Part shown: positions 1,874 through 19,532 of the stretch, one piece after another
Numbering within the stretch: the stretch's first letter is position 1
How the letters are laid out: each line of letters starts with the position of its first letter
Assembly: GCA_030149205.1 (NCBI GenBank)
Contig: JASBSB010000001.1
Span: forward strand, 870,001-902,000
Reading direction: 5' to 3'
Origin: Candidatus Heimdallarchaeota archaeon
GTDB lineage: Archaea > Asgardarchaeota > Heimdallarchaeia > Heimdallarchaeales > Kariarchaeaceae
Length of the DNA stretch: 32,000 nucleotides
Program-made: the position numbers and the translations under genes
Notes under the pieces: generated by a model
Seen by the model: the letters and a program-made list of their open reading frames with translations, nothing else
Told to the model about the DNA's origin: nothing
Databases searched by the model: none

Positions 1874-3991
1874 TTACCCACCCACTCTATGAATACTCCA
1901 TCCTTCAAACTTCTGTTCATTTATGATTCTTCTTCCGTCCAGAATCAAATGCTTTGCTGTGTTAGATATCTGCATAGGTTCAAGCATCCGAAATTCTTCC
2001 CATTCCGTAGCTAAAATTATAGCATCTGATTCTTCCGTTGCCAATAAGACTGAACTGTGTAGTTGAAGATTGCTGTTATAAAAGCCCTGTATTTGATCAC
2101 TTCGTGATGGATCATATCCCTTTACAGTTGCCCCTAAACGAAGCAAAGTGTCTACTATGACTATGGATGGAGCATTCCGAACATCATCTGTATTTGGTTT
2201 AAAAGTTAATCCTAAGACAGTGATCACCTTCCCTTGCAAGTTCTTGTAAATTGATTGAAGTTTTTTCACTGGCCAGAGTTGTTGAGACTCATTAGTTTTT
2301 AGTGTTGCAGGAAGAATTTCAGGATGTAAATTCTCAGCATGAAAGGTAGAGACAAGAGAGGAGAGGTCTTTTTTAAAACATGACCCTCCAAAACCTATTC
2401 CAGGGTTCAAAAATCTTGGGTTGATCCTGTGATCTGAAGTTAGACCTGTTTTAATCCTGTCAAATGAGATATCTGTCTTTTCAGACAACCCTTCTGTTAA
2501 TAAGGCAACCTCATTGATAAATGAGACCTTGCTAGCTAGAAAAGCATTCGAAACATATTTTGTGAGTTCAGCATCTGTGATGCCCATTTCAATTATTTTA
2601 GAACCAAGTGATTCATATAATTCAACACAAATTTTTCGTGATTCCAAATCTTCTGTTCCAAATACCATTCGATCTGGATAAAAGAAATCCTTTAATGCAG
2701 TTCCCTCACTTAAAAACTCTGGAACCATTGCAAACCCAAAATCAGTTTTATGTGACTTTCCGGTTGACTTTTCGATCTGAGGAATTAAGAAAGAATTACA
2801 AGTTAAGGGTGGGACAGTACTTCTAACAACTATAGTCACTCGTTTTTCGGATGAAGAGATAATAGAACTAACAAGGGACCCAGCACCTCCAAGCTGTGAA
2901 AGGTCAGTAGAACCATCGTTCGCAGATGGAGTACCCACACAGATAAGCATCACATCAGGAGTAATGTTTGAAAGTTCCGCAGGATCTATAGACTCAGGAT
3001 ATCTTCCCTCTAAATCTAAAAAATCCATTAATTCGGGGAGACCTGGTTCGAGAAAAATGGGGTTGCGTTCGCGAGTTTGTAGAATTTTGTGTTGATCCAC
3101 ATCTGTAAATATTATGTTATGACCTAGCAAAGCCAGTCCAAAACCCGAGATTAATCCCATATATCCCATTCCGACAACTAAGACATCTAGTGAGTCTTTA
3201 CATTTCTGAGATAATTGGATAAATCGTCTTTGCAGCGCTGTATTCTTTAATTTTAAAGTTCTATGTTTGATAATTTCTTCAAATGGTTGAAGCTCTCTGC
3301 CTAGTATATGTTGCATTAAAGCATATATGGAATTGATCCTATTTTGCTCATTTAAGCCATTTATTTTAAATTTAAATTGCCTTAGTTTCTGTTTTATTTT
3401 GGGGTCAATTAATGAATCGTAGGCATTAAGAGGAAGATAATCCCTGTTCAACGTGGACTGAGAGAGAGTCAACAAATGCTTATGCGTCAAGAAGAGGTGA
3501 AATTCGGCGGAGTAATAATCAGAGTTCATCAAATCATTCAAAACAAGAAGAAAACATTCTATTGACCTGTTAGAATGATATGTATATTTCGTATTAGAGA
3601 CATTATTGAAGAATTTGAATTTCTCTTTTAATTCAGCCTGAAGATCTCCAGTGGCATCATAAAGGATCATTTTATTGATATCCGTTTTATTAATTGTTTC
3701 CTCTAAGAGATGAAAATGTGTAGAAATTGAGCTGGTAAAGTGGACATCATAATCAAGGGTATCATTTGACACTAAGATAAGTTTATCTTCATATTCTATT
3801 GCTTCATAACCACATAAACTTTCGATTATCTTTGATTTGATAGATTTGAAATCCCTGAAACTTGAAATCACAATTACATCGATGTCATGTGGTTCAGAGT
3901 TTATCTTTGTTTCATAGAGTGAAGAACCAAATTGTAAAATACCTGAAACTTCAGGTATTCCCTTTAAGACAGATACGATTGCATTATCCAC
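1874..3991 (-). CDS. ugd: Fusion: N-terminal Pol-beta-superfamily nucleotidyltransferase + C-terminal UDP-glucose 6-dehydrogenase
   Basis: N-terminal part: FGS-x12-DID (QFGSSLYETKINSEPHDIDVIV), then ILYDATG and a helical region. C-terminal part: Rossmann motif VVGMGYMG, ICVGTP, RSTVPP, PEFLSEG, catalytic GFGGSCFKKD, GLTFKPNTDDVRNAP. Confidence 0.9.
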   Translation of the reverse strand: MDNAIVSVLKGIPEVSGILQFGSSLYETKINSEPHDIDVIVISSFRDFKSIKSKIIESLCGYEAIEYEDKLILVSNDTLDYDVHFTSSISTHFHLLEETINKTDINKMILYDATGDLQAELKEKFKFFNNVSNTKYTYHSNRSIECFLLVLNDLMNSDYYSAEFHLFLTHKHLLTLSQSTLNRDYLPLNAYDSLIDPKIKQKLRQFKFKINGLNEQNRINSIYALMQHILGRELQPFEEIIKHRTLKLKNTALQRRFIQLSQKCKDSLDVLVVGMGYMGLISGFGLALLGHNIIFTDVDQHKILQTRERNPIFLEPGLPELMDFLDLEGRYPESIDPAELSNITPDVMLICVGTPSANDGSTDLSQLGGAGSLVSSIISSSEKRVTIVVRSTVPPLTCNSFLIPQIEKSTGKSHKTDFGFAMVPEFLSEGTALKDFFYPDRMVFGTEDLESRKICVELYESLGSKIIEMGITDAELTKYVSNAFLASKVSFINEVALLTEGLSEKTDISFDRIKTGLTSDHRINPRFLNPGIGFGGSCFKKDLSSLVSTFHAENLHPEILPATLKTNESQQLWPVKKLQSIYKNLQGKVITVLGLTFKPNTDDVRNAPSIVIVDTLLRLGATVKGYDPSRSDQIQGFYNSNLQLHSSVLLATEESDAIILATEWEEFRMLEPMQISNTAKHLILDGRRIINEQKFEGWSIHRVGG

Positions 3992-4472
3992 CTACCAGTT
4001 CCTCCATTTGATTGCTTGACATTTCAAATTCAACCTCTCCATCAAATATCAAATTTGGGTTCCAGAAGTTGGAATTAATTAATTTGCGTAACTCATCATC
4101 CAACCAAATTATTGTTTCATTTATATTAGACTTCCAAGGATAGGGGGTCAATGGTTGAACTGCATTGACCCTTTTTAGGCAGGTGTTTACAGATGTTGAG
4201 ACAAAAATAACTTTGAAGGCAGATTTTGAAAGTGCCTGTTTAACTGCATGTCGGTGTACCCCAGCACCGCTAAATTCTAAAACCATGTCTAAGCTGTTTT
4301 CACATGCCTCTAGGAATTTTGACCATGCTAAGTACTCACCTGCAAAAGACCCGTCACTGTATTCAATGCGTAGCTTATCTATTTGCACAGTTTTAAAGCC
4401 CAACATCTCTTGTAACACCTCCATTATTGTCGATTTACCAGAGCCTATGTTTCCAATTATTAGAACCTTCAT
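3984..4472 (-). CDS. Small P-loop kinase (NMP/polynucleotide/gluconate-kinase-like)
   Basis: Walker A GNIGSGKST at the N-terminus, IDKLR (DxxR) motif, CLKRV lid; overlaps the next gene by 8 bp. Confidence 0.8.
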   Translation of the reverse strand: MKVLIIGNIGSGKSTIMEVLQEMLGFKTVQIDKLRIEYSDGSFAGEYLAWSKFLEACENSLDMVLEFSGAGVHRHAVKQALSKSAFKVIFVSTSVNTCLKRVNAVQPLTPYPWKSNINETIIWLDDELRKLINSNFWNPNLIFDGEVEFEMSSNQMEELVGG

Positions 4473-4473
4473 C

Positions 4474-5496
4474 TCAGTTATTCCTCACACATTCTAAAAT
4501 TTTTATCTCATTATTCAAACTATAAGTCTCGGAAATTCTAAGATCAGTTGAGTTAATGAGTCTTAAATACTCAGCATAGGTTCTCTCCTTACCCCCAACC
4601 AACACCAACTGATTAAGTTGAAGGAAAGGATTGTATCGATTATCATCACTCAACCGCTCTATAATAAGGAGTTTCCCCTCTGGGTTGAGAGAATCTAAAC
4701 AGTTTTTCAAGATGTTTTGTGCCTTTTCATCTTCCCAATCATGTAACACCCTTGCAAGAATAATAATATCACTTTTTGGTATATGATCTTCAAAGAATGA
4801 GCCTGAGACATATTCCAATCCGGAATGATAATTCAATTCTTGTGAAATTTTAATCGTTAGTGGCAGATCAAACAAAACTAACCGATTATTTTTGTTGGAG
4901 CAATGAATAAGTTGAAGCAATCCCCCAAAACCTCCTCCCACATCTGTTATGATTGAATTTTCAGAAAAATTATAGACAGAATTAATATTATAGTAATCTA
5001 GTATTGCATATATATGTAGAGCCGAATAATATACCTTTAATTTTTCGGGTTTTGATTGATACCATTCAAACAGGGAAATACCATAAAGTGAAGAAAATTG
5101 CTCCTTTCCACTTTCAATAGCATCTTTTAAGGATCGCCACACTAAATTTTGTTCATCTCTCCAAAAAAGCAGGATATTAATTGGATTAAGTACATCATTA
5201 CTGACAAACAGTTTTCCAAGTTCTGTTAAAGCAACTTCTTGATCAATTAAAGATACAATTCCTAATTGATCCAACGCTTCAGTTAGTATTTTAGTTGAAT
5301 CTAGACCAGAGTTAATTTTTCCTGATAATTCGGTTATAGTTAACGATTTTGAAACTTCTAATTGCTGAAATAGACCAAGCTCCCAAGAACAAATAATGGT
5401 TTCAGTTTGCCAATACACTGTAGAAATAGTAGAAAATTGGTTAAGTCTGGTTGAAAATTTTGTGAGTACACTTAACACTGATGATGTAGACAACAT
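4474..5496 (-). CDS. SAM-dependent O-methyltransferase (Methyltransf_2/COMT-like, with N-terminal dimerisation wHTH)
   Basis: DVGGGFG SAM-binding motif, GSFF, ARVLHDWEDEKA, GGKERT; N-terminal LGLFQQL...LTITELS helix-turn-helix. Confidence 0.9.
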   Translation of the reverse strand: MLSTSSVLSVLTKFSTRLNQFSTISTVYWQTETIICSWELGLFQQLEVSKSLTITELSGKINSGLDSTKILTEALDQLGIVSLIDQEVALTELGKLFVSNDVLNPINILLFWRDEQNLVWRSLKDAIESGKEQFSSLYGISLFEWYQSKPEKLKVYYSALHIYAILDYYNINSVYNFSENSIITDVGGGFGGLLQLIHCSNKNNRLVLFDLPLTIKISQELNYHSGLEYVSGSFFEDHIPKSDIIILARVLHDWEDEKAQNILKNCLDSLNPEGKLLIIERLSDDNRYNPFLQLNQLVLVGGKERTYAEYLRLINSTDLRISETYSLNNEIKILECVRNN

Positions 5497-6225
5497 TTAA
5501 ACCCCCACACAGTCAAGTACCATGATTGTCGAACCTGTTTCATCAATTATTTTCTTTTTACCCTCTTTGGTTTCAACTAATGCCTGTCCATTATAAAATG
5601 GCTCTACCCAATTAAATCTTTGTTCATAAATTGAAGAACCTGATATATCCGAGTGGAACCACCCCTGTTGATCCTTACACCTGGCAAAACCTTTGTGAAA
5701 TACATCTAAATCTAAAAAACTCTTGTTGTTCAAAAAGTTACCATGAGTGTCAATATGCTTACAACGACCAGATGGTAACCTTACAACCGCATAATCATCC
5801 TTAAAATCACCCACATAACAATAGTTTGATTCATAAACCCTCTCACCTTTTAAGTTAATGTGGAAATACCTGTTGGCATTATCCCTCACAACACACCTTT
5901 GATATTGATAATTCCCACAGAAACTATATCTCTGAGGGTACAACGGTTTTCCATCTGATAAAATATGATACCACCCCATATCAGAGCTAACAGCAGCTCT
6001 TTCTTCATAATAACCAAAAGTTCTTAAAAATCTCTCTTTATAAGCAGGTGAACCATCCATATTGATATGATATGCACCCGAAGAATCTACAACAGGTGCA
6101 AGCCCAGGATGGTGAAATTTTAGAACCTCTTTGAACCTTTGTGAATACAATGGGTTATTCTTATAGATGTGATAGGTTTTATCCTTGGATACAGTTGTGT
6201 CATTCCACCTAGGCATGAATATCAC
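5497..6225 (-). CDS. WG-repeat-like beta-propeller protein
   Basis: Six to seven repeats of about 35 aa, pattern F/Y-xxx-AxV-...-(Y/F)HI-xxxG-xxxY-xxxF/Y; its stop codon abuts the methyltransferase ATG. Confidence 0.8.
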   Translation of the reverse strand: MIFMPRWNDTTVSKDKTYHIYKNNPLYSQRFKEVLKFHHPGLAPVVDSSGAYHINMDGSPAYKERFLRTFGYYEERAAVSSDMGWYHILSDGKPLYPQRYSFCGNYQYQRCVVRDNANRYFHINLKGERVYESNYCYVGDFKDDYAVVRLPSGRCKHIDTHGNFLNNKSFLDLDVFHKGFARCKDQQGWFHSDISGSSIYEQRFNWVEPFYNGQALVETKEGKKKIIDETGSTIMVLDCVGV

Positions 6226-7258
6226 CTTCAGGACGTCTCATATTACAACCTTTACAGAGAGGATGATCCAAATAATTTTCAACTAGATCTTTGTAATTAT
6301 CTCCTTCCCAGATTTCTGAGAAGCTGGCTTCATTTAAGTTACCAAAAAAACCCAATTCTTTTCTCTGCTCATCTGGGGCACAACATGGATTAAATCGTCC
6401 ATCCCAAGCAACCCAAGCCTCCCTTCCTAGAAAGGGACAAACTGAATCCTTCATTAGCTCCACACTTGATGTAGCAGGATTTAACAAGTATATATTGTCC
6501 AGTTTAACCCTTGAACCATCTGGTCTGCGGTATTTCTCTACATTTTTCTGTATTTCCTTTACAATTTTATTCCATTTATCAATAGATTCAGAACTTCTTC
6601 TCATCGATTGATCCTTTATTTCATCAAAGTGAGCCCAAAGATGATGTCCTTTAATTCTATCAATTCCAAGTTTAGCTGCAAATTTCACAAGTTCGGGTAG
6701 CTCCTGTGAATTTATCTCCATAAATGTATATTGTAGTGTCACAGAGCAGTAGTTACCACCCTCTCTGTAAATTTGATCTCGAATATTTAGAAATTCCTTG
6801 AGGTTTTTTATATTCTGATCAAAATCAATACCTTTCATTACCTGTTCTGAAGTCTCTTTAGTTACACCATTCCAAGATATTTTCACATCACTCCCAATAG
6901 GAACTATCATTTCAGCCCATTTTTTCGCTCCATTTCTTGGAAAGGTGCCATTTGTTGTTAGATTCAACATTACTTGATAGCTTTCACATAATGAGATGAT
7001 TTTCTCAAATTCTTTGTACATAAGTGGTTCTCCCATAGTTGAGGGAATAATCTCCTTAACTGAACCATAAGCCTTTACCTCTTCTAAGGTCTTTTCAATA
7101 AGGTCAACTGACATCCTTCTGCGTTTGACTCCATTTGGTAAAACACGCAATTCCTTGATGGAGCTAAACTCACTAAACTCCTCACACATTATACAGTGAA
7201 GATTGCAATCATCTGGATTTGTATCAAAAGTGATACGCCAAGGTCCTTTATTTTTCAT
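6209..7258 (-). CDS. Radical SAM enzyme with C-terminal SPASM/twitch domain
   Basis: CNLHCIMC (CxxxCxxC), GEPL, LTTNGT; C-terminal CPF...DGRFNPCC...GNL...EIW...CKGC. Confidence 0.93.
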   Translation of the reverse strand: MKNKGPWRITFDTNPDDCNLHCIMCEEFSEFSSIKELRVLPNGVKRRRMSVDLIEKTLEEVKAYGSVKEIIPSTMGEPLMYKEFEKIISLCESYQVMLNLTTNGTFPRNGAKKWAEMIVPIGSDVKISWNGVTKETSEQVMKGIDFDQNIKNLKEFLNIRDQIYREGGNYCSVTLQYTFMEINSQELPELVKFAAKLGIDRIKGHHLWAHFDEIKDQSMRRSSESIDKWNKIVKEIQKNVEKYRRPDGSRVKLDNIYLLNPATSSVELMKDSVCPFLGREAWVAWDGRFNPCCAPDEQRKELGFFGNLNEASFSEIWEGDNYKDLVENYLDHPLCKGCNMRRPEGDIHA

Positions 7259-8552
7259 TTGATTTACCTTCCATTATATTTTTGTAAATTTCAAGTAGTT
7301 CTTGGACATGGTCTTCAATAGAGACCACATCTCCCTCTGAATATAGATATCCTCGCATCCCCCACTTCTTTAGTAAGGCTGGATGATCGATTGCGAACTG
7401 CATTTGTTCTGCAAGAGATTTGACATTACGATGCTTAAACAACAGTCCATTCTCCTTGTGCTTTACATAATCTGCCATCCCACCTACATTCGCAGTAATT
7501 ACAGGAACTCTCACTTGTTGTGCTTCATGAATTACCAAAGGTGAGTTTTCTAACCAGATTGAAGGCACAACTAAACAATCAATGTGATTAAACACCTCAG
7601 ACACGATTTCTTCATTAATATATTCCTCTCTCCATTCTATGTGAAGGTGGGTAGGTGCTTTATTAGCTAATTCTTTCAAAAAAGGTGTGACTTCTCCACG
7701 GGATCTTCCCCAAATTACTAATCTGGCTTTTGAGGAAAGCTGAGAAAATGACTCTATTAAGTGATGAATTCCTTTCGTAACTATGTGAGTCCCAATATAT
7801 CCAAAGGTAAACTGTCCCTCACGTTTGACTCTACCTTGTAACCTTCCTAAATCAAACCCATAATCTAAATACTTAATTTGTTCATCTGCTAAACCCAAGG
7901 CTTGCTTCATCCGTTCAAGCAATGAAAATGAAGGGGCGATAAAGAGGTTAACATTCTCCACCAATCTGCTTATGTGCTTTCGTCTTAGTTTAACCCAGTT
8001 GGTCCAGTATGCTATATCATCTGTTATTGAATCTGATTCTCCTGAGGCAAACCTCATAAAACAATGAATTGCACACTTTTTGTCTTCTTGCCCATCACAT
8101 AGTGACCATGATGGTTCCAGCCCAAAATTATTTTGAATAAATTGTCCTCTAGGGCAAGACAACCAAAAATCATGGAGTGTAAACACTATAGGTAAATTAT
8201 AGCTAGCTGCAACATCAATTATCCCTAACGAGAGATGGTTGAGATGATTGAAATGCACAACATCTGGTGAGAATTCAGAGATTATTGTGTTGAACCTTTC
8301 ATCTACTTTGTCTGTCTGAAATCGGTTTTGAAGATTTACAACATTTATCAATTTTACTGGAAAACTGCTTTTCTGACTCTGATCTTGCTCATTGACAATT
8401 TCAAATTGATTGATGAAAGGGTTCTCCAACCTTGAGAAAATCATCACTTCATGTCCTAAATCTGATAACCCCCTTGCGATGTTCTGTGTATAAATTTCTG
8501 ATCCCGCATTATACCGCATTGGATATCCATGGTTCACAAGTAAAACTTTCAA
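7248..8552 (-). CDS. Glycosyltransferase family 4 (GT-B) with Cys-rich insertion
   Basis: MKVLLVNHGYP...GSEIY, DVVHFNHL, TLHDFWLSCP, KGIHHLIESF, VVPSIWLENSPLVIHEA, NVGGMADYV; TTG start with SD GGGGGA. Confidence 0.92.
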   Translation of the reverse strand: MKVLLVNHGYPMRYNAGSEIYTQNIARGLSDLGHEVMIFSRLENPFINQFEIVNEQDQSQKSSFPVKLINVVNLQNRFQTDKVDERFNTIISEFSPDVVHFNHLNHLSLGIIDVAASYNLPIVFTLHDFWLSCPRGQFIQNNFGLEPSWSLCDGQEDKKCAIHCFMRFASGESDSITDDIAYWTNWVKLRRKHISRLVENVNLFIAPSFSLLERMKQALGLADEQIKYLDYGFDLGRLQGRVKREGQFTFGYIGTHIVTKGIHHLIESFSQLSSKARLVIWGRSRGEVTPFLKELANKAPTHLHIEWREEYINEEIVSEVFNHIDCLVVPSIWLENSPLVIHEAQQVRVPVITANVGGMADYVKHKENGLLFKHRNVKSLAEQMQFAIDHPALLKKWGMRGYLYSEGDVVSIEDHVQELLEIYKNIMEGKSNEK

Positions 8553-8612
8553 TGAGTTCCCCCAAAATTTGGTAAGGTAAACCTTTTACATCATTATTTG
8601 AACGTTTAGTTT

Positions 8613-9533
8613 TTAGGTATCCATAATTGCCTGAAGATTTTTCTGAATAGTTTTCAGGTATAGTGATAAACCCGCTTCTACAGAATATTCAGGGATATAA
8701 CCCAAGAATTTCTTTGCTTTTGAGTAGTCACCATAAAAGTAATTCACATCATAAGACCTTCTCACATTTTCAACCATAGAAGATTTACTTTCGGTAAGCT
8801 CGATTATTTGTGTTGCTAACTCAAGTAGTGTGGTTGCTTTACCAGTACAGATATTGAAGTCTTCGATTAGTCCTGGTTTTTGGGCTTTTATCCACTTGAT
8901 TGACTTAAGAATTCCATCGACAGTGTCAAACACGTGAGTGAAATCAAAGGTATTATCTTTGCCATTCAATCTTAATGTTTCATTCTGTAGAGCTTGTTTA
9001 ACAAAGATGGGAATCACCCGTGTAGCATGATCTCGCAACCCCCCGTAAACATTTGAAAATCTAAGAATCGCTCCCCTTGAAGAATTAGATATGACAAACT
9101 CTCTGACCAGCTTTTCTGAAACCAGCTTAGTAACTCCGTAAACATTAATGGGAACTAGAGGATATGTCTCAGGAACTGGGAGAGAGGAAGGTTCCCCATA
9201 AATCTCTCGACTACTACCGTAAATTATCCAAGGTTTAAAACTCCTAATGCTTTCCAAAACTTTCAGAGTACCACCCACATTTACCTCCCAAGTCCTATAA
9301 GGATCATTCTCAGCATCAATAACCCGGGACACAGCCGCTAGATGAACAATTCCCTCAAATTTTCCAATCTCAGAGAGATAGTCTCCAAATTCTCTCACAT
9401 CACCTTGAACCCAATTAACTTCTGCTAACTGTGGTTTTTGCAGGTCAAATACCACAACCTCCGCTATTTTCTTTAGTCTTTGCACCAGTTCTGTACCGAT
9501 TAAACCCGATCCCCCAGTAACCACTACCCTCAC
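8613..9533 (-). CDS. NAD-dependent epimerase/dehydratase (extended SDR, GalE-like)
   Basis: VTGGSGLIG, VHLAA, SSREIYG, catalytic YGVTK (YxxxK), RFSNVYG; GTG start. Confidence 0.93.
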   Translation of the reverse strand: MRVVVTGGSGLIGTELVQRLKKIAEVVVFDLQKPQLAEVNWVQGDVREFGDYLSEIGKFEGIVHLAAVSRVIDAENDPYRTWEVNVGGTLKVLESIRSFKPWIIYGSSREIYGEPSSLPVPETYPLVPINVYGVTKLVSEKLVREFVISNSSRGAILRFSNVYGGLRDHATRVIPIFVKQALQNETLRLNGKDNTFDFTHVFDTVDGILKSIKWIKAQKPGLIEDFNICTGKATTLLELATQIIELTESKSSMVENVRRSYDVNYFYGDYSKAKKFLGYIPEYSVEAGLSLYLKTIQKNLQAIMDT

Positions 9534-9619
9534 TAATTGTGAATCTAATTTTGAACATTAAAAAATTATGAATAATATAGAGTTTTTTGTATTAACTTGA
9601 AAAATATTGAATGAAATTT

Positions 9620-9739
9620 TTACTTCTTACTGTTTTTTGCCCCAGCACTCTGAGTCCTTGCCTTAAAATCTTGGTTTTTACCAGTCTTATCAGCATGACT
9701 CTGAATTCTTTTAGCAGAATCGTTATTCATTTTTGTCAA
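9620..9739 (-). CDS. 39-aa hydrophilic peptide MTKMNNDSAKRIQSHADKTGKNQDFKARTQSAGAKNSKK (copy 2; not in ORF track)
   Basis: Hand translation: TTG at 9739 (in-frame ATG at 9730), TAA at 9622-9620. SD GGGAGGTGA ends 4 nt upstream. Shares RIQSHADKTGKN with copy 1. Confidence 0.88.
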   Translation of the reverse strand: MTKMNNDSAKRIQSHADKTGKNQDFKARTQSAGAKNSKK

Positions 9740-9743
9740 TTTT

Positions 9744-9788
9744 TCACCTCCCTTTTTTGGTAATTAAACATATCACATTGTATATAAT
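9744..9788 (-). promoter_or_regulatory. Archaeal TATA box and SD for peptide copy 2 (possibly also drives the downstream operon)
   Basis: Minus strand reads ATTATATAC, about 28 nt, then GGGAGGTGA-AAAA-TTG; same layout as the copy 1 promoter. Confidence 0.65.
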
Positions 9789-9882
9789 AGCTATAGTTTC
9801 TTAGACTTTGAAATTTTTTCAAGAATTTCTAAAGATAAGAAATTTAATTAATATATCCTCAAGAATTTTATGTTAGTTTATG

Positions 9883-10677
9883 TTAGTGGGGATAAATTAG
9901 ATGGTAGAACCTCTTCAATTCTTCGCCCGCTGTATTCAATTTCTGATTACTGTGGTGATGATTTATGAAATTATTATTTAACACCTTTTTCTTAAACTCA
10001 GAAACTCTTTTCTGACTCACCTTAAGAGCAGTAGATAATTCTTTTTGAGTTGGATAGGTACCCCATCTATTCAATATTTGCACATCCTTTTTATCAATGA
10101 AAGGCAGTTCCATTAAAGGAATGAGTTGAAAACCTAACTCATTTGTAGAAATCGATGATTTAATCGAAGAATCTGTACTATGTAAATTAGGGTTTTCTTT
10201 TAATGAAACCGGATTTGTAATGAAAGAATATTTCCGATTTCTGAGACTGCAGTCAATATCTTTAAACTTGATAAGGAAATTGATAACGTTAAAAATAACC
10301 GCTGAAAGTGCCCTTCTACCCCGGGCAATCTGAAAAACTATCTTTGATATATCGGGTTGCATACCTTTAGTAATTTCTCTGGATAGAGATAGCACGACTT
10401 CTTGCTGCATTTCCAGATTATTGGCCACCGTCATTTCAAAGCAAGAAAGATCAACACCAAATTTTCTAACAGGAAAATTTGACCCAAACTCCTTACTCAC
10501 TTTCTTTATGCTCATTTCCCAATTTTCTAAGATTGATCCTTCTACAGGGTTTTTTGGTTCTTTTGAATACAGACCAATCAAACCTTTAGCTCTAGTTTCA
10601 GTTAATGTACGTATCAGCGGATCAATAAACTTGGTTTTTCTTCCAAGTGTAGTGACGAGAAGTGAACCTTCCTCCAT
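9883..10677 (-). CDS. CARF-like domain + C-terminal winged HTH (Csa3-like nucleotide-sensing regulator)
   Basis: N-terminal strand LLVTTLG; IVFQIARGRRALS is a degenerate form of the CARF D/NxT/SxGxK/R strand-loop; C-terminal TQKELSTALKVSQKRVSEFKKKV...LNTAGEEL winged HTH. Confidence 0.65.
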   Translation of the reverse strand: MEEGSLLVTTLGRKTKFIDPLIRTLTETRAKGLIGLYSKEPKNPVEGSILENWEMSIKKVSKEFGSNFPVRKFGVDLSCFEMTVANNLEMQQEVVLSLSREITKGMQPDISKIVFQIARGRRALSAVIFNVINFLIKFKDIDCSLRNRKYSFITNPVSLKENPNLHSTDSSIKSSISTNELGFQLIPLMELPFIDKKDVQILNRWGTYPTQKELSTALKVSQKRVSEFKKKVLNNNFINHHHSNQKLNTAGEELKRFYHLIYPH

Positions 10678-10749
10678 TTAAATTCATTCTTTTTACTTAA
10701 ATAAAGCAGTTTTGTCTGACAGTTGACCTTTTAACTAAAATTTTATCAT

Positions 10750-12165
10750 CTATGAGCAAAGTTTCTCAGGTACCAATGTACACATTTCTTTGAACTCTCC
10801 TGTTTCAAAATCTCTGTCGTATATAACAACTGATTTTTTTTGTTTGAACAAATATCTGCCAAGATAAACCGCAATTGGTGTGGGCCCTCGAAAATAGAAA
10901 TGAACTTTTTCAATATCTTGAATAAAGGGACTAAACAGTTCAATTAATATATCTGCATTTTGTTTTGCTTCTTCCTGTGTGGTGACCTCTAAATCACCTT
11001 TTGGGTGGATATCAATCAAACCTAGGTTATTTGGAAGTGAGATTTCTTCTTTGTACAAATGTATAATAATTAAATTTTTGGCTTTCAAGGTTTTTGCTTC
11101 TTTCTCCCAGATATTTTGCTCAGAATATTTTTTGAGTTTTTGATTGTTTTCTGAAGGCATAAGGTTTACAATTTCACTCCTACCCATATCACTGGGCAGT
11201 CGTAGAAAGGTTGACAGTGATGTCTCAGGAAATTTTGATTCAAAAATATAAGCGAAAATTAAACTTTGAACTTGAGATGCCTTGTTAAATAGCAAAAATC
11301 CTAAATTACTTGATTTAAGCTTACTAGAGTTAAAACTACTTAATTTCAAACGACTACAAATCTCTTCAACTATAAAGTCATATGACCCTGGTAATACTCT
11401 GTTTTCTCTAATAACTTCTCCCGGATAAAATTTATCAACAAAGGAAATTTTTAAATCTACTGGATACATCATACCTCCGTAAGCATCCAATCCCAAAGTG
11501 AAGTAATTGATAATTTCAAGTGACCCAAATTGATATCGTAGATACCCATCAATCTTTTCATCGAATTTGGAAGAGATAGAACTAAATTCTAATCCTAAAT
11601 TTATGTATTTGTTCCAACTTGTCTTAATTTTATCTTCTCTAAAATTTAACGTACCATCTTCATCAATAAATTTTGCAAATAAGATATAAAGAACATTGCG
11701 AGCAGAGTTTATGATATTTGCAACCGATTCATCTGAAGTTTTCTTTTTCGAAGTATTTAAAAAAGTAAACTTGTGTGTAATGGAGTTCCTGAAATCAGTT
11801 AGACTTGAGATCACATCTCCAATTCGCTGGCGGTACCATGTGTTATCTGAAATCAAAAGTCTACAAAGTCGGTTGATTTCAAAAGATTTAATCTGCCACT
11901 CTTTTTTGTCAAAATAAGGTTTTAACAGCAGTTCTAGAACACAATGCAACTTGATTATAAGGGTTTTATTGACCTCGTGTTTAGATTGAATCACATTTTT
12001 GTTTGAAAAGGACAAAAACAGATTAATTGCATCATAAATAGATTTTAGATGTTTTGAAGAGTTATTGTCATAATTATCGACAAATACTTGTAACTGAGTT
12101 TCAACATTATCTTTAAGTTCATCAAAATACTTACCGGATTTCCATGGATTGTTACTTTTTCTCAT
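10750..12165 (-). CDS. HEPN (RxxxxH) + SAVED domain protein, putative cyclic-oligonucleotide-activated RNase
   Basis: N-terminal LHCVLELLLK and LTDFRNSITH (HEPN ExxLK and RNxxxH). C-terminal KVHFYFRGPTPIAVYLGRYL...VVIYD (SAVED signature), with an earlier degenerate half-repeat GFLLFNKASQVQSLIFAYIF. Confidence 0.75.
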   Translation of the reverse strand: MRKSNNPWKSGKYFDELKDNVETQLQVFVDNYDNNSSKHLKSIYDAINLFLSFSNKNVIQSKHEVNKTLIIKLHCVLELLLKPYFDKKEWQIKSFEINRLCRLLISDNTWYRQRIGDVISSLTDFRNSITHKFTFLNTSKKKTSDESVANIINSARNVLYILFAKFIDEDGTLNFREDKIKTSWNKYINLGLEFSSISSKFDEKIDGYLRYQFGSLEIINYFTLGLDAYGGMMYPVDLKISFVDKFYPGEVIRENRVLPGSYDFIVEEICSRLKLSSFNSSKLKSSNLGFLLFNKASQVQSLIFAYIFESKFPETSLSTFLRLPSDMGRSEIVNLMPSENNQKLKKYSEQNIWEKEAKTLKAKNLIIIHLYKEEISLPNNLGLIDIHPKGDLEVTTQEEAKQNADILIELFSPFIQDIEKVHFYFRGPTPIAVYLGRYLFKQKKSVVIYDRDFETGEFKEMCTLVPEKLCS

Positions 12166-12254
12166 AGATTTGAGTTATTAAGTCAAAATTTAAGGCTTAC
12201 AGCTCTAGATATAGAAATTTTCTTAATTACTTTGAATCACAGAAGATAAAGATA

Positions 12255-12917
12255 TTATATAACCAATAAAGGATTTTGAATCTCTGCTAATTCGTTCACC
12301 CAGTAATAATACCTTTCTGAGATATTCGTATTTAAACTCAGAAGGGCAGTAATAATAATCCCATCTATTAATTCAATAGAGACCCCAGCTCTTCTCATAA
12401 TCCCCAGACCAGATATTGTGTTTACAAGATACCAAGCCAGCTGTTCATTAGATGAGTAAGTATTCTCTATCTGTCCAAGATCTGTGGCTTTGTCTAATGC
12501 AAATTTAAATGCATCTTTGTAGAGATTAAAGAATACAAGGGATTTGTGGGCAACATCAAAATTATTTAGTGCCTCTTCGATTGTGCAGTTTGAGATATAA
12601 CAGCTGTTATAGATATGAGATTCAATTTGAAATTTCCGATTTAAGGCAAAGTGCTTTACAATCATATCCAAAGGATTTAAGGAATCACTATACAAAGTTG
12701 AGGATTGAAGGGTCTGGCTCATCATCTGTGTAAATAAGTCCATAGTTTTCAGGAAGATTGTCTGTTTATCCCCGAAGGTATCATAAAAACTACTTCGTGA
12801 GATATTTAATTTTTCTAAAAGATCAGACATCGATGTCCCTTCAAATCCCTTCTCCCAAAATAATTGAAGAGCTTTTCTGACAGCAGTAACTGGTGAAAAA
12901 TTCTTTGGTCGACCCAT
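12255..12917 (-). CDS. TetR/AcrR family transcriptional regulator
   Basis: MGRPKNF...ALQLFWEKGFEGTSMSDLLEKLNISRSSFYDTFGDKQ; CYISN in the C-terminal domain. Confidence 0.95.
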   Translation of the reverse strand: MGRPKNFSPVTAVRKALQLFWEKGFEGTSMSDLLEKLNISRSSFYDTFGDKQTIFLKTMDLFTQMMSQTLQSSTLYSDSLNPLDMIVKHFALNRKFQIESHIYNSCYISNCTIEEALNNFDVAHKSLVFFNLYKDAFKFALDKATDLGQIENTYSSNEQLAWYLVNTISGLGIMRRAGVSIELIDGIIITALLSLNTNISERYYYWVNELAEIQNPLLVI

Positions 12918-17256: not shown

Positions 17257-18756
17257 ATGTATGAGAATATCTTAGAAAATGGATTGGTAAGGTTAAGAGT
17301 TATCCCCTCTGTTTCTTACGTGCTACGGGGGATCGAGAACAAGATGTATCTCCTGTTTGAACTGACTACTGACAAAAAGGAAACTGAGGTCAAAAGAAAA
17401 CCATTTGACCTGTCTGTCGTCTTGGACAGATCAGGGTCAATGCATGGTCCAAAACTGGAAAGATCAAAGGAGGCAATTGAGTTACTGATCAATAACCTCA
17501 GGACTGAAGATGGGGTGTCCCTCACAGTCTATGATAACCAGGTTGGGGTTGTGTTTAAGAACCAAAGCACAAAAAACAAATCAGTTTTGTTACAGAACAT
17601 TCGGTCGATTCACAGTGGTGGATCTACCTTCTTATCTGGGGGTTTAGAGCAGGGAGCAGAGCTCCTCAAAAAAAGCAGCCACCAAGACAGGAGAGTCTTC
17701 ATCTTCTCTGATGGACTTGCAAATGTGGGAATTAGAGACATTGATGGAGTCTCCCGTCTTGCTCAGCAAATAAGAGCGGAGGGCATAAAGACATCTTCAT
17801 TCGGTATTGGAGATAATTTTAGTGAGGACATGATGGTGTCTATCTCTGAGAGTGGAGGAGGTGAATTCTACTTTATTGAGTCAGCATCAGATATCCCAGT
17901 TATTGTGGAGGACGCCATTGAGGGAATGCTTGCAAATGTGCTTTTGAATGTGAGACTTCAGCTACGAGAGGCATTGGATGTGCAGATCAAAAAGGTCTTT
18001 GGATTTGACTCTACCACCATCGATGTGGGTGACATCAAATCTGAGGAGACCAGACAGTTCCTTGTGGAGATCAATATCACACCAGGACAGAGCGACAGCA
18101 TTGATGTCTTACAGTTCAAGCTAGATTACTCAAAACCTGAAAACCTTAAGGAAATCGGATCATTGTCTGACATTGTAAAGATCAAGATAACTGATGATGA
18201 AAGTCTTATCTCTGAGGAGAATCCCGAGGTCATGCAACTTAAGGAGATGTTAGAAAGCGCAGAACGAGAGACAGATATGATAGAACTCATAGATCAGGGG
18301 AGGTATGATGATTCGATCAGGATGTATGAGAGAGAGATCGATAAGCTTGAAATGATAGAAAATAAGGATCCACATCTGATTGACAAGATAGACCTGATGA
18401 AGGACAACTTAACGCAGCTAAGACTTGACAAAGAACGGGATGATTACAGGATGTCAAGAAAGAAAATTCACTACGACAGTTATTCAACTGCAAGATCACT
18501 CAGACGTCACAGCTCCAGAAGAGGTGAGAGATTAAGAGAAACTAGCGAGCCTTCAGCACAGAATCAAGAGAGACGATCTCCTGAAAAGAATAATGTGACG
18601 AGAAAGAGGAGCAAAGGGGGATCAAAAAGAACACAAAAAGAGAGCCCTGAAGAAGGTCAAAAGAGAAGGTCTGTACGAAAGAACAAGGCAGAACATGGAG
18701 CAGGATCTGGAAAAGACGCTAAAAAGAGACACTATAAAGAGGGAAAAAGGGTGTAG
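17257..18756 (+). CDS. von Willebrand factor A (MIDAS) domain protein with Lys/Arg-rich C-terminal tail
   Basis: DLSVVLDRSGSMHG (DxSxS), GSTFLSGGL, FIFSDGLANVG, FGIGDNF; the last ~80 aa are low-complexity basic. Confidence 0.9.
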   Translation: MYENILENGLVRLRVIPSVSYVLRGIENKMYLLFELTTDKKETEVKRKPFDLSVVLDRSGSMHGPKLERSKEAIELLINNLRTEDGVSLTVYDNQVGVVFKNQSTKNKSVLLQNIRSIHSGGSTFLSGGLEQGAELLKKSSHQDRRVFIFSDGLANVGIRDIDGVSRLAQQIRAEGIKTSSFGIGDNFSEDMMVSISESGGGEFYFIESASDIPVIVEDAIEGMLANVLLNVRLQLREALDVQIKKVFGFDSTTIDVGDIKSEETRQFLVEINITPGQSDSIDVLQFKLDYSKPENLKEIGSLSDIVKIKITDDESLISEENPEVMQLKEMLESAERETDMIELIDQGRYDDSIRMYEREIDKLEMIENKDPHLIDKIDLMKDNLTQLRLDKERDDYRMSRKKIHYDSYSTARSLRRHSSRRGERLRETSEPSAQNQERRSPEKNNVTRKRSKGGSKRTQKESPEEGQKRRSVRKNKAEHGAGSGKDAKKRHYKEGKRV

Positions 18757-18758
18757 GT

Positions 18759-19532
18759 GTGAGAATGGGATTTAGGGAAGAAGTAGATAATTTTCGTGCA
18801 TTATGTCGATTGCTTTTCTCTCAGGATATGAAACTTGAGGTTGATTTTGAAGAAAAAGGATTGACACTATTTAGCATACCGTATCTCCCCTCCGAGATAA
18901 GTGAACTGGTGAGTTTGGAGTGTTTGGATATAGACGACAGTCCAGAACTGACAGAATTGCCACCTGAAATTGGACAACTGAAGAATCTTAGGTATTTAAG
19001 ATTAAGTCATAGTAATGTTCATTCACTTCCATTTGAGATTGGGAGATTGGTAAATCTTGAGGAACTTATCATAACCTCACTTCCGTTGATCCAGTTACCA
19101 CCTGAAATAGAGAATTTAAAAAAATTAACGACAATAAAGCTTGCTTCAATTCCCCTTACATCATTTCCAAAAATAATTTGCAAGCTTGAGAATTTAGAAG
19201 TGGTATACCTTGTAAATCTGGTTAAAATCAGTGAAATTCCTAAAGAGTTTACTAAATTAAATAAACTAAAAAGTGTCGAATTGAAAGCGCTGAGAGGTTT
19301 ATATCACCCACCTGATGAAATCAATCATTTGATAAAGTGTGAAATTAAATGGAGTATGCACGAAGTTATTTACTCTTACTCAACTCGTAAAATAATTGAT
19401 CCTGAACTGCGGCATTATGAAAACAAATACAGATACACAAGGTACTTATGGGTTAATAAAGGGAACAAATATAAAGAAATTATAAATTTGGATGGAACAC
19501 AATATTATGCATCCCAAGTTTTCAGAATATAA
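18759..19532 (+). CDS. Leucine-rich repeat protein (about 6-7 repeats of ~23 aa)
   Basis: LPPEIGQLKNLRYLRLSHSNVHSLPFEIGRLVNLEEL pattern; starts 2 nt after the vWA stop. Confidence 0.9.
   Translation: MRMGFREEVDNFRALCRLLFSQDMKLEVDFEEKGLTLFSIPYLPSEISELVSLECLDIDDSPELTELPPEIGQLKNLRYLRLSHSNVHSLPFEIGRLVNLEELIITSLPLIQLPPEIENLKKLTTIKLASIPLTSFPKIICKLENLEVVYLVNLVKISEIPKEFTKLNKLKSVELKALRGLYHPPDEINHLIKCEIKWSMHEVIYSYSTRKIIDPELRHYENKYRYTRYLWVNKGNKYKEIINLDGTQYYASQVFRI

What the first reader, a model, noticed from the sequence alone, without database searches (positions are those of the whole stretch)
10750..12165. HEPN-SAVED fusion: an apparently uncharacterised cyclic-oligonucleotide-activated RNase architecture, with no cyclase nearby
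Seen: an N-terminal HEPN signature (VLELLLK...FRNSITH) and a C-terminal SAVED signature (VHFYFRGPTPIAVYLGRYL) with a degenerate first half-repeat. Established: SAVED domains sense cyclic oligonucleotides in CBASS and type III CRISPR effectors (Cap4 endonuclease-SAVED, Cap5 SAVED-HNH, TIR-SAVED, SAVED-CHAT, CalpL). HEPN RxxxxH domains are RNases that usually pair with CARF (Csm6/Csx1). I do not know of a characterised HEPN-SAVED effector. No CD-NTase, Cap2/Cap3, Cas10 or CRISPR array is visible in this window.
Basis: partly seen in the sequence, partly recalled or inferred. Interest (0 to 1): 0.8.

Follow-up and report, generated by a model that had tools for sequence, protein, structure and literature searches.

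The report
HEPN RNase fused to SAVED sensor
An Asgard (Heimdall-group) archaeon encodes a very rare protein that joins a probable RNA-cutting HEPN domain to a SAVED cyclic-nucleotide sensor, a combination I found described nowhere, and in all seven known copies it sits beside the same sugar-modifying gene cluster rather than beside CRISPR genes.

Summary
Window 10750-12165 (minus strand) encodes a 471-aa protein. Its C-terminal half (residues ~220-470) is a complete SAVED domain: profile-profile probability 98.1%, E 1.3e-13, and Z 14.6-18.5 to 13 solved SAVED proteins. Its N-terminal half (~35-190) is a HEPN-like helical domain. Across seven homologues at 15-24% identity, the only invariant residues are E78, R126 and H131 (the Rx4H dyad). 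The best structural matches are HEPN toxins (Z 8.4). A predicted homodimer (0.54 vs control 0.01) places the two Rx4H motifs face to face.

The family is tiny: seven members among billions of proteins, all in one order of Heimdall-group Asgard archaea. "No cyclase nearby" is true for the window, but the genome has a type III CRISPR locus with a GGDD Cas10 on another contig. It also has a canonical Csm6 and a CARF-wHTH/viperin pair, both encoded away from the CRISPR locus.

Unexpectedly, every family member adjoins the same accessory epimerase-GT4-radical SAM operon.

Best reading (confidence 0.55): a cyclic-oligonucleotide-gated RNase fed in trans by Cas10. This is a new variant of a known kind, and the conserved operon link is unexplained. 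This scan has not seen the fusion before on other DNA.

The parts
10750..12165 (-). HEPN-SAVED gene, 471 aa (P0001)
   Evidence: ORF and translation. Seven homologues are known in total.
11596..12063 (-). N-terminal HEPN-like helical domain (residues ~35-190)
   Evidence: AF2 pLDDT is mostly 80-96 here. VIA matches: HEPN toxin 8xdj Z 8.4 (rmsd 2.9, 118 aligned), YutE 7.8, AF_0298 6.7, HI0074 6.5, 7ae2 6.2, 5yep 5.8, 1wol 5.2. Homodimer prediction 0.54 vs best control 0.01.
11773..11790 (-). Rx4H catalytic motif RNSITH (R126...H131)
   Evidence: Translation. R and H are invariant in 7 of 7 homologues. The motif lies on the predicted dimer axis, with contacts 130-130 and 126-130.
11932..11934 (-). 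Invariant Glu78 on an earlier helix, predicted to contact H131 of the partner chain
10756..11520 (-). C-terminal SAVED domain (residues ~216-470), with both CARF-like halves
   Evidence: hhalign 98.1%, E 1.3e-13. Foldseek top 50 hits are all SAVED proteins. VIA Z 14.6-18.5 to 9r8s, CalpL, Cap4, SAVED-CHAT, Cap5, Cap14 and TIR-SAVED.
9883..10677 (-). Downstream neighbour P0002 (264 aa): C-terminal HTH plus a possible, unproven CARF-like N-terminal domain. Homologues flank the same operon in G052 and G045.
   Evidence: Weak CARF/Csx1 hits at residues ~82-149 in all three members, plus HTH hits. Homologues found at 7.7e-30 and 6.8e-15. hhalign against a bona fide CARF-wHTH gives only E 0.066.
1874..9533 (-). 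Conserved accessory operon beside every family member: epimerase, GT4, radical SAM-SPASM, WG-repeat protein, O-methyltransferase, P-loop kinase, ANT-like NTase fused to UDP-glucose dehydrogenase
   Evidence: Pfam. Synteny in G052, G043, G011, G012 and G032. The NTase head is ANT(6)/LinB-like.
12255..12917 (-). TetR-family regulator upstream. It is not conserved beside the other family members and is probably not part of the unit.
   Evidence: Pfam TetR_N 1.2e-11. Absent from the other loci.

Best explanation
The gene encodes a two-domain sensor-effector protein. A SAVED domain binds a cyclic oligonucleotide, and a HEPN domain cuts RNA.

Proposed mechanism:
1. In the resting state the protein is a monomer or an inactive assembly.
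2. A virus transcript is recognised by the genome's type III CRISPR complex, encoded on another contig.
3. The GGDD cyclase site of Cas10 makes cyclic oligoadenylate.
4. The ligand binds the SAVED domain and drives SAVED-SAVED stacking, as in CalpL, TIR-SAVED, SAVED-CHAT and Cap4.
5. Stacking brings two HEPN domains together so that two Rx4H motifs, with Glu78, form a composite RNase site.
6. RNA cleavage then slows the infected cell or destroys viral transcripts.

Shown here: the two folds, the invariant catalytic motif, a predicted dimer with the motifs face to face, and a cyclase-competent Cas10 plus other trans-encoded cOA receivers in the same genome.

Inferred: ligand identity, activation by oligomerisation, RNase activity, and the link to Cas10.

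The conserved position beside a P0002-type HTH regulator and a sugar-modifying operon suggests that the whole island is one signal-responsive defence module. That part is speculative.
For: SAVED domain:
- hhalign 98.1%, E 1.3e-13 over 206 columns.
- All top-50 Foldseek hits are SAVED proteins.
- Z 14.6-18.5 to 13 SAVED structures.
- Distant members P0006 and P0007 exceed the NCBIfam SAVED cut-off and match Cap4-type PADLOC profiles over the SAVED part only, E ~1e-11.

HEPN domain:
- E78, R126 and H131 are the only invariant residues among 7 domains at 15-24% identity.
- HEPN-fold proteins lead the N-domain structural hits, although no outside HEPN sequence was in the alignment.
- Homodimer score 0.54 vs best control 0.01, at least 94% contact agreement between runs, partner pLDDT at least 81. 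The mark was reached by 20 of 30 true homodimers and 1 of 23 single chains. The interface runs through residues 126 and 129-133. This pass may partly reflect likeness to solved HEPN dimers.

Signal source:
- Cas10 Palm2 at 66.9 bits with an intact 'IGGDDV' motif, inside a Csx7/Csx10/Cas6 operon with CRISPR arrays.
- No SMODS/CD-NTase in the genome.

Trans-encoded receivers are normal in this genome: a canonical CARF-6H-HEPN Csm6 on contig 12, and a CARF-wHTH next to a viperin on contig 11.

Cas10 is present in 5 of 6 carrier genomes against 8 of 41 non-carriers in the order (Fisher p 0.004).

Ligand-induced oligomerisation as the SAVED activation mode is reported in PMC11417357 and PMC11229360.
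Against: - No family member lies on the same contig as a cas10 gene. Here the nearest CRISPR array is ~870 kb away and the Cas10 is on another contig. Typical type III ancillary genes sit inside cas loci.
- One carrier, G032 (79% complete), has no Cas10, and none of the 25 genomes of its genus has one.
- Collapsed to genera, the Cas10 co-occurrence is not significant (p 0.18).
- The one invariant genomic association is with the sugar-modifying operon, not with CRISPR.
- The HEPN fold match (Z 8.4) is below the level at which helical bundles can match by chance.
- The sequence hits to HEPN families are weak, E 0.03-0.06.
- No biochemical data exist.
Confidence: 0.55

Rival explanations
1. The protein belongs functionally to the neighbouring operon, not to CRISPR. 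Its SAVED domain senses a nucleotide-containing product or intermediate made locally. One candidate is an adenylylated or nucleotide-linked sugar made by the ANT-like NTase, the kinase or the UDP-sugar enzymes. The HEPN RNase then acts as a feedback regulator, or as a guard or addiction module for the cluster.
For: - All 7 members adjoin the same epimerase-GT4-radical SAM-WG operon, in at least three different arrangements and across three taxonomic families. The HEPN-SAVED proteins themselves have diverged to 17-25% identity.
- The operon is itself a patchy accessory element, found in 20 of 400 genomes.
- The G032 locus exists in a genus without Cas10.
- A small-molecule kinase and an ANT-like NTase recur in the operon.
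Against: - All characterised SAVED ligands are cyclic di-, tri- or tetranucleotides.
- The NTase resembles aminoglycoside adenylyltransferases, not CD-NTases, and is absent from the visible G011 and G032 operons.
- At least 12 operons in other families have no HEPN-SAVED gene nearby.
- Adjacency within one order could be inherited synteny.
Confidence: 0.2
2. The protein is mainly a signal-quenching enzyme. Its SAVED domain (and possibly its HEPN domain) degrades cyclic oligoadenylate, so it limits the type III response rather than executing it.
For: - The best structural match is a viral SAVED ring nuclease (9r8s, Z 18.5). CalpL, whose SAVED domain is a ring nuclease, is second at Z 18.3 (PMC11417357).
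- HEPN domains of some Csm6/Csx1 proteins also cleave cOA (PMC9704534).
- The genome already has a canonical Csm6 as an RNase effector.
Against: - Z values among all the SAVED matches lie within about 1-4 units, so they do not discriminate ring nucleases from plain sensors.
- An invariant Rx4H dyad with a predicted composite site is what an RNA-cleaving effector needs.
- Ring-nuclease and effector roles are not mutually exclusive.
Confidence: 0.1
3. The N-terminal domain is a HEPN-toxin-like module controlled by covalent nucleotidylation, as in MNT-HEPN toxin-antitoxin pairs. Alternatively, it is a non-catalytic nucleotide-binding HEPN/KNTase_C-type domain, and the protein is not a ligand-activated RNase.
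For: - The closest N-domain structures are MNT-HEPN toxins (8xdj AMPylated HEPN toxin, 7ae2, 5yep) and the C-terminal domain of an aminoglycoside nucleotidyltransferase (6nlt).
- A Pol-beta-type NTase gene lies next to, and overlaps, the G052 copy, and recurs in the operon elsewhere.
Against: - From my own knowledge, unchecked here: the Tyr that is AMPylated in Rx4HxY toxins is Phe or Leu in 6 of 7 members here.
- The NTase is not present in every locus.
- Fusion to a complete SAVED sensor argues for regulation by a ligand.
Confidence: 0.08

Closest known systems
Csm6 / Csx1 (CARF-HEPN type III CRISPR ancillary RNases)
   Same: Same logic: a cyclic-oligoadenylate sensor fused to a HEPN Rx4H RNase whose active site needs two HEPN domains. 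A canonical Csm6 exists in this very genome.
   Different: The sensor is SAVED (a single-chain pseudo-dimer), not a dimerising CARF. The domain order is reversed, with HEPN at the N-terminus. The HEPN domain shows no detectable similarity to the genome's own Csm6, and the Pfam scan of P0001 lists no Csm6 or Csx1 HEPN family. The gene is not in a cas locus.
CalpL (Lon-SAVED), SAVED-CHAT, TIR-SAVED (Cap12), Cap4, Cap5
   Same: N-terminal effector plus C-terminal SAVED. SAVED fold match Z 14.6-18.3. Activation by ligand-induced oligomerisation is the likely shared mechanism.
   Different: The effector head here is a HEPN RNase instead of a protease, NADase or DNase. There is no adjacent CD-NTase and no cas10.
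MNT-HEPN toxin-antitoxin toxins (e.g. SO_3166, PDB 5yep; 8xdj; 7ae2)
   Same: These are the closest solved folds for the N-terminal domain (Z 5.8-8.4). They share the Rx4H motif and a dimeric active site.
   Different: Those are small stand-alone toxins neutralised by an NTase antitoxin. Here the HEPN domain is fused to a SAVED sensor, and the residue after the motif is mostly Phe or Leu, not Tyr.
Other sensor-HEPN single-protein defence RNases
   Same: The idea of a small-molecule sensor domain gating a HEPN RNase within one polypeptide (those notes were not checked by me).
   Different: The sensor domain and the presumed ligand class are different.

Membership tests
SAVED domain (Pfam PF18145 / NCBIfam NF033611) | Significant match to the family profile | tested here: met
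   P0001 alone falls just under the cut-offs (22.4 bits vs 26.2; 29.9 vs 33). However, 7 of 7 family members hit PF18145. P0006 and P0007 exceed the NCBIfam cut-off at 65 and 56.7 bits. The family profile against 18 bona fide SAVED domains gives 98.1%, E 1.3e-13.
SAVED domain (Pfam PF18145 / NCBIfam NF033611) | Fold made of two fused CARF-like alpha/beta halves | tested here: met
   The AF2 model (pLDDT 80, pTM 0.70) aligns over residues 220-470 to 13 SAVED structures at Z 14.6-18.5, rmsd 3.0-3.7, 207-228 residues. Caveat: SAVED sequences were in the input alignment.
SAVED domain (Pfam PF18145 / NCBIfam NF033611) | Binds a cyclic oligonucleotide | not testable with these tools
   Needs binding assays (ITC, SPR or DSF with cA2-cA6, cGAMP, cAAG).
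HEPN superfamily RNase | Conserved Rx4-6H motif | tested here: met
   RNSITH at residues 126-131. R and H are invariant in 7 of 7 homologues and, with E78, are the only invariant residues of the domain.
HEPN superfamily RNase | All-alpha HEPN bundle fold | tested here: inconclusive
   HEPN proteins lead the N-domain matches: 8xdj Z 8.4, 1ylm 7.8, 2hsb 6.7, 1jog 6.5, 7ae2 6.2, 5yep 5.8, 1wol 5.2. The tool warns that Z under about 13 for helical bundles can reflect a common arrangement. The domain was not folded alone.
HEPN superfamily RNase | Dimer that brings two Rx4H motifs together into one active site | tested here: met
   Prediction only. Homodimer score 0.54 vs best control 0.01, runs agree in at least 94% of contacts, partner pLDDT at least 81. 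The mark was reached by 20 of 30 true homodimers and 1 of 23 single chains. Contacts include 130-130, 126-130 and 78-131. The pass may partly be memory of solved HEPN dimers.
HEPN superfamily RNase | RNA cleavage dependent on the R and H residues | not testable with these tools
   Needs an in vitro RNase assay with R126A and H131A mutants.
Type III CRISPR ancillary (CRISPR-associated) effector | Gene located in or next to a type III cas locus | tested here: not met
   No cas gene lies in the window. Cas10 is on contig 8, and the contig-4 array and Cas1 are ~870 kb away. In G011, G012, G043 and G052 the Cas10 genes are on other contigs than the HEPN-SAVED gene.
Type III CRISPR ancillary (CRISPR-associated) effector | Co-occurrence with a cyclase-active Cas10 in the genome | tested here: inconclusive
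   5 of 6 carriers against 8 of 41 non-carriers (p 0.004 by genome, 0.18 by genus). G032 lacks Cas10. GGDD was verified only for this genome's Cas10.
CBASS effector (Cap protein) | Operon with a CD-NTase (SMODS) cyclase | tested here: not met
   No PF18144 match anywhere in the 93.5%-complete genome, and none among the neighbours in any locus.
Csm6 / Csx1 | CARF sensor plus a Csm6- or Csx1-type HEPN domain | tested here: not met
   The sensor is SAVED. The N-domain profile shows no similarity to the genome's own Csm6. The Pfam scan of P0001 at E up to 10 lists no Csm6 or Csx1 HEPN family.

The most novel reading that the evidence does not exclude
The 11-kb island is a single signal-controlled chemical-defence module. 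On this reading, a cyclic-nucleotide signal comes from type III CRISPR or from an unknown local synthase. It is read by two receivers: the HEPN-SAVED RNase and the P0002 HTH regulator. It switches on both RNA degradation and synthesis of a modified, aminoglycoside-like sugar compound made by the epimerase-GT4-radical SAM-methyltransferase-kinase-NTase operon. That would link adaptive immunity to inducible small-molecule defence in the archaeal relatives of eukaryotes. The same genome's CARF-wHTH/viperin pair would be a second example of this design.
Probability: 0.15. Interest if true: 0.85.

Novelty: new variant of a known kind. Interest (0 to 1): 0.62.

Why it matters
SAVED and CARF sensors fused to effectors are the output layer of cyclic-nucleotide immunity (type III CRISPR, CBASS). 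HEPN is the commonest CARF partner, but I found no description of HEPN fused to SAVED.

The fusion poses a real mechanistic question. HEPN needs a symmetric dimer to form its active site. SAVED proteins are asymmetric single-chain units that, in the characterised cases, are activated by ligand-induced oligomerisation or filament formation. How one geometry drives the other is not known.

The family is confined to Heimdall-group Asgard archaea. It is always tied to an accessory sugar-modifying operon rather than to cas genes. That hints either at an unrecognised ligand or at signal-regulated chemical defence.

A compact cyclic-nucleotide-gated RNase with a new sensor could also be of use in type III CRISPR diagnostics.

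Tried and rejected
- **First AF2 run:** on the 3-sequence alignment it gave pLDDT 37.8 and was discarded.
- **Large-database searches:** word-indexed searches with P0001, A1 and A2 found only family members. phmmer over 1.84 billion representatives found only two relatives.
- **PDB profile searches:** these gave only borderline hits, a SAVED chain at E 2.1 and colicin at E 0.37.
- **ESM Atlas by features:** nothing usable for the whole protein or for the N-domain.
- **The search for related loci:** A1 and A7 returned only known members plus one near-duplicate metagenome contig.
- **Apparent split gene in G043:** this is a 10-N scaffold gap, not a real split.
- **Operon NTase as the missing signal synthase:** unlikely, because the domain is ANT(6)/LinB-like.
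- **P0002 as a CARF protein:** not established. hhalign against a bona fide CARF-wHTH gave E 0.066, and the PDB profile search found only the HTH.
- **Same-genus empty-site comparison:** failed, because G053's contig ends right after the epimerase.
- **N-domain vs this genome's own Csm6:** no similarity found.
- **Makarova 2020 CARF/SAVED census (PMC7498327):** not held, so I could not check whether a HEPN-SAVED architecture is tabulated there.
- **The look-up of sequencing runs:** closed, so there is no expression evidence.
Full report
**1. The observation**

Window 10750-12165 (minus strand) is an intact 471-aa ORF (P0001). RNSITH lies at 11773-11790 and the VHFYFRGPTPIAVYLGRYL strand-helix lies near the C-terminus. 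The 32-kb window holds no cas gene, no CD-NTase, no CRISPR array and no Rfam match. The flanking genes have an archaeal flavour (HVO_A0261-type and TrmB/PadR-type HTH proteins, many LRR proteins). Relatives' records name Candidatus Heimdallarchaeota MAGs.

**2. How rare it is**

- HMMER over 1.84 billion representative proteins found only two relatives, P0004 and P0005, at 27-28% identity.
- A six-frame profile search of 400 genomes of the phylum found it in three.
- I then collected bona fide SAVED proteins from the phylum and scored their ORFs with the family profile. This uncovered three more distant members with the same architecture: G011 (P0006), G012 (P0007) and G032, of 473-507 aa, carrying RSDVAH, RNEVAH and RNTITH.
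- Two of these exceed NCBIfam's curated SAVED cut-off, and the database's own annotation tags them PF18145.
- Further searches added nothing.

The family therefore has seven known members, all in one order of Heimdall-group Asgard archaea. An apparent split form in G043 is a 10-N scaffold gap.

**3. The SAVED half**

- P0001 alone scores just under the curated thresholds: Pfam E 1.1e-4, NCBIfam E 3.8e-7.
- All seven members that include the region hit Pfam SAVED.
- P0006 and P0007 match Cap4-type PADLOC effector profiles across the SAVED part only, E ~1e-11.
- The family profile against an alignment of 18 bona fide Asgard SAVED domains gives hhalign probability 98.1%, E 1.3e-13. This covers P0001 residues 237-464 and positions 35-256 of 257 in the reference. 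Both CARF-like halves are therefore present. The first half is only divergent.
- With a 26-row alignment, AF2 gave mean pLDDT 80 and pTM 0.70.
- All top-50 Foldseek PDB hits are SAVED proteins.
- An exhaustive VIA search gave Z 14.6-18.5 to 13 SAVED structures over residues 220-470: a viral SAVED ring nuclease, CalpL, Cap4, SAVED-CHAT, Cap5, Cap14 and TIR-SAVED.

**4. The HEPN half**

- In an alignment of the seven N-terminal domains (15-24% identity to P0001), only three residues are invariant: E78, R126 and H131. These are the Rx4H dyad plus an acidic residue on an earlier helix.
- Two members give weak hits to different HEPN families at the motif: HEPN_Apea 0.056 and HEPN_RiboL-PSP 0.032.
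- The AF2 N-domain is confidently helical, with pLDDT mostly 80-96. No outside HEPN sequence was in the alignment.
- Its best structural matches are nevertheless HEPN-fold proteins: HEPN toxin 8xdj (Z 8.4, rmsd 2.9, 118 of 130 residues), YutE 7.8, AF_0298 6.7, HI0074 6.5, AbiA 6.3, 7ae2 6.2, SO_3166 5.8 and ST0689 5.2. These Z values are below the level at which helical bundles can match by chance, so I rate the fold test alone as inconclusive.
- A homodimer prediction of the N-domain passed: score 0.54 against a best control of 0.01. The runs agree in at least 94% of contacts and the partner's pLDDT is at least 81. The mark was reached by 20 of 30 true homodimers and 1 of 23 single chains.
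- The symmetric interface runs through the motif itself, with contacts 130-130, 126-130 and 78-131. That is the geometry of HEPN composite RNase sites. The pass may partly reflect likeness to solved HEPN dimers.

Taken together, I put the HEPN assignment at about 0.85-0.9.

**5. The signal source**

- The genome (3.3 Mb, 12 contigs, 93.5% complete) has no SMODS/CD-NTase, and P0001 is its only SAVED protein.
- It does have a type III-D-like operon on contig 8, with Csx7-like and Csx10-like RAMPs, Cas6, and a short, HD-less Cas10 of 496 aa. The Cas10 has Palm2 at 66.9 bits and an intact IGGDDV motif.
- That operon sits next to a 43-repeat array and Cas1/Cas2/Cas4. There is a second array at the contig's start, and a third array with Cas1 at the start of contig 4.
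- Other cOA receivers in this genome are also encoded far from the cas locus. One is a canonical CARF-6H-HEPN Csm6 on contig 12. Another is a CARF-wHTH protein divergent from a prokaryotic viperin (304 bits, cut-off 180) on contig 11. Trans-encoded receivers are therefore normal here.
- Among the 47 genomes of the order, Cas10 occurs in 5 of 6 carriers against 8 of 41 others. That gives p 0.004 by genome but only 0.18 by genus.
- G032 (79% complete) lacks Cas10, and so do all 25 genomes of its genus.

**6. The unexpected context**

Every family member lies beside the same accessory operon: epimerase, GT4 glycosyltransferase, radical SAM-SPASM and WG-repeat protein. Variable additions are an O-methyltransferase or carbamoyltransferase, a P-loop kinase, a histidine phosphatase, and an ANT-like NTase fused to a phosphatase or to UDP-glucose dehydrogenase.

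The arrangement differs between genomes:
- directly upstream and co-directional in G043;
- separated by P0002 in this genome;
- separated by an opposite-strand 205-aa P-loop kinase-like gene in G011, G012 and G032;
- convergent at the far end in G052.

The GT4-rSAM-WG core is itself patchy, present in 20 of 400 genomes. It occurs without HEPN-SAVED in other families. P0002 homologues flank the epimerase in G052 and G045 as well.

P0002 has a clear C-terminal HTH, and all three members give weak hits to different CARF profiles at the same position. However, a profile comparison with this genome's bona fide CARF-wHTH gave only E 0.066. P0002 being a CARF protein is therefore unproven.

The operon's NTase head resembles aminoglycoside 6-adenylyltransferases and is homologous to the Pol-beta domain of the G052 neighbour. 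It looks like a tailoring or self-resistance enzyme, not a cyclic-nucleotide synthase.

G011's flank also carries a GmrSD-type restriction enzyme, and it differs from the flank in the same-genus G012. That is typical of variable defence regions.

**7. Mechanism and rivals**

The best-supported reading (0.55) is a cyclic-oligonucleotide-gated RNase. Ligand binding to SAVED drives self-association, as shown for CalpL, SAVED-CHAT and TIR-SAVED. This brings HEPN domains into the dimer that forms the Rx4H site. The ligand probably comes from Cas10 in trans.

Rivals:
- The sensor reads a product of the adjoining operon, or otherwise serves that operon (0.2).
- The protein is mainly a ring nuclease that quenches the signal (0.1).
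- It is an MNT-HEPN-toxin-like module controlled by nucleotidylation, or a non-catalytic HEPN domain (0.08).

**8. Comparison and novelty**

It works like Csm6/Csx1 (sensor plus HEPN) and like CalpL, Cap4 and TIR-SAVED (effector plus SAVED), but it is a member of neither group. It fails the locus criterion for a CRISPR-associated gene and the CD-NTase criterion for a CBASS effector.

I found no paper using 'HEPN-SAVED' or 'SAVED-HEPN'. No such fusion appears in the reviews and surveys I could read. The 2020 CARF/SAVED census is not held. An actinobacterial SAVED cluster with an unannotated N-terminus aligned over residues 15-467 of the model. Unrecognised bacterial analogues therefore cannot be excluded.

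This scan has not reported the fusion before on other DNA.

**Verdict**

A real, new domain combination within a known signalling logic, so a new variant of a known kind. It has an unexplained, conserved link to a sugar-modifying operon, and that link is the most interesting lead. Interest 0.62.

Noticed in passing
G000 contig 11: L067:1201-1860 (-) and L067:1914-2888 (+) (= C11:15843-16631): A bona fide CARF-wHTH protein (Cas_APE2256 3.9e-9, Card1 CARF, DUF6293_C winged helix) sits divergently next to a prokaryotic viperin (NF038283, 303.9 bits, cut-off 180). A second viperin lies at C5:762-1544. This suggests cOA-regulated viperin expression in this Asgard genome.
   Followed up: partly
G000 contig 12: L068:1024-2583 (+): A canonical Csm6 (CARF + 6H + Csm6 HEPN, 519 aa) is encoded on a different contig from the only Cas10 locus.
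   Followed up: partly
G000 contig 8: L006:12526-19812 (-), arrays at L006:1-1981 and 9225-12362; contig 4 array at L008:16-2500: A type III-D-like locus with an unusually short (496 aa), HD-less Cas10 that keeps GGDD. It has four Csx7/Csm3-like RAMPs, a Csx10-like protein and a 364-aa Cas6. Two different repeat families flank a Cas1-Cas2-Cas4 block that includes an unannotated 946-aa protein and a DUF2797 protein.
   Followed up: partly
window 1874-9533 (-): The conserved accessory operon has the enzyme logic of an aminoglycoside-like or modified-sugar natural-product cluster: SDR epimerase, GT4, radical SAM-SPASM, WG-repeat protein, O-methyltransferase, P-loop kinase and ANT(6)-like NTase fused to UDP-glucose dehydrogenase. 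Its GT4-rSAM-WG core occurs in 20 of 400 genomes of the phylum, often with the WG protein extended to ~580 aa.
   Followed up: partly
window 9883-10677 (-), residues ~115-125 of P0002: Where canonical CARF domains carry the ligand-binding 'GGTK' loop, the P0002 family has an invariant 'GRR' (ARGRR). If the domain is CARF-like, it may bind a different ligand or none.
   Followed up: partly
L044:10679-11296 (-), L045:7118-7735 (-), L046:5986-6612 (+): A 205-208-aa P-loop kinase-like protein (AAA_18/AAA_33/CPT/Zeta-toxin-like hits) lies tail-to-tail, 1-8 bp from the HEPN-SAVED gene in G011, G012 and G032. It also occurs at the end of the G181 operon.
   Followed up: no
L044:845-2566 (+) and 5517-6218 (+): The upstream flank of the G011 copy carries a GmrSD-type (DUF262) restriction endonuclease and an AAA ATPase. 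The same-genus G012 has a different flank, consistent with a variable defence region.
   Followed up: no
ESM Atlas cluster, row 1: An actinobacterial 'SAVED domain-containing protein' cluster (443 aa, 79 members, only SAVED annotated) aligned over 298 residues spanning residues 15-467 of the model. It might be a bacterial analogue with an unannotated helical (HEPN?) head.
   Followed up: no
window 17257-19532 and 26300-28225 (+): A VWA-domain protein is followed by an LRR protein, and there is a separate 641-aa protein made almost wholly of leucine-rich repeats. Several neighbouring ORFs of 280-580 aa have no Pfam family.
   Followed up: no
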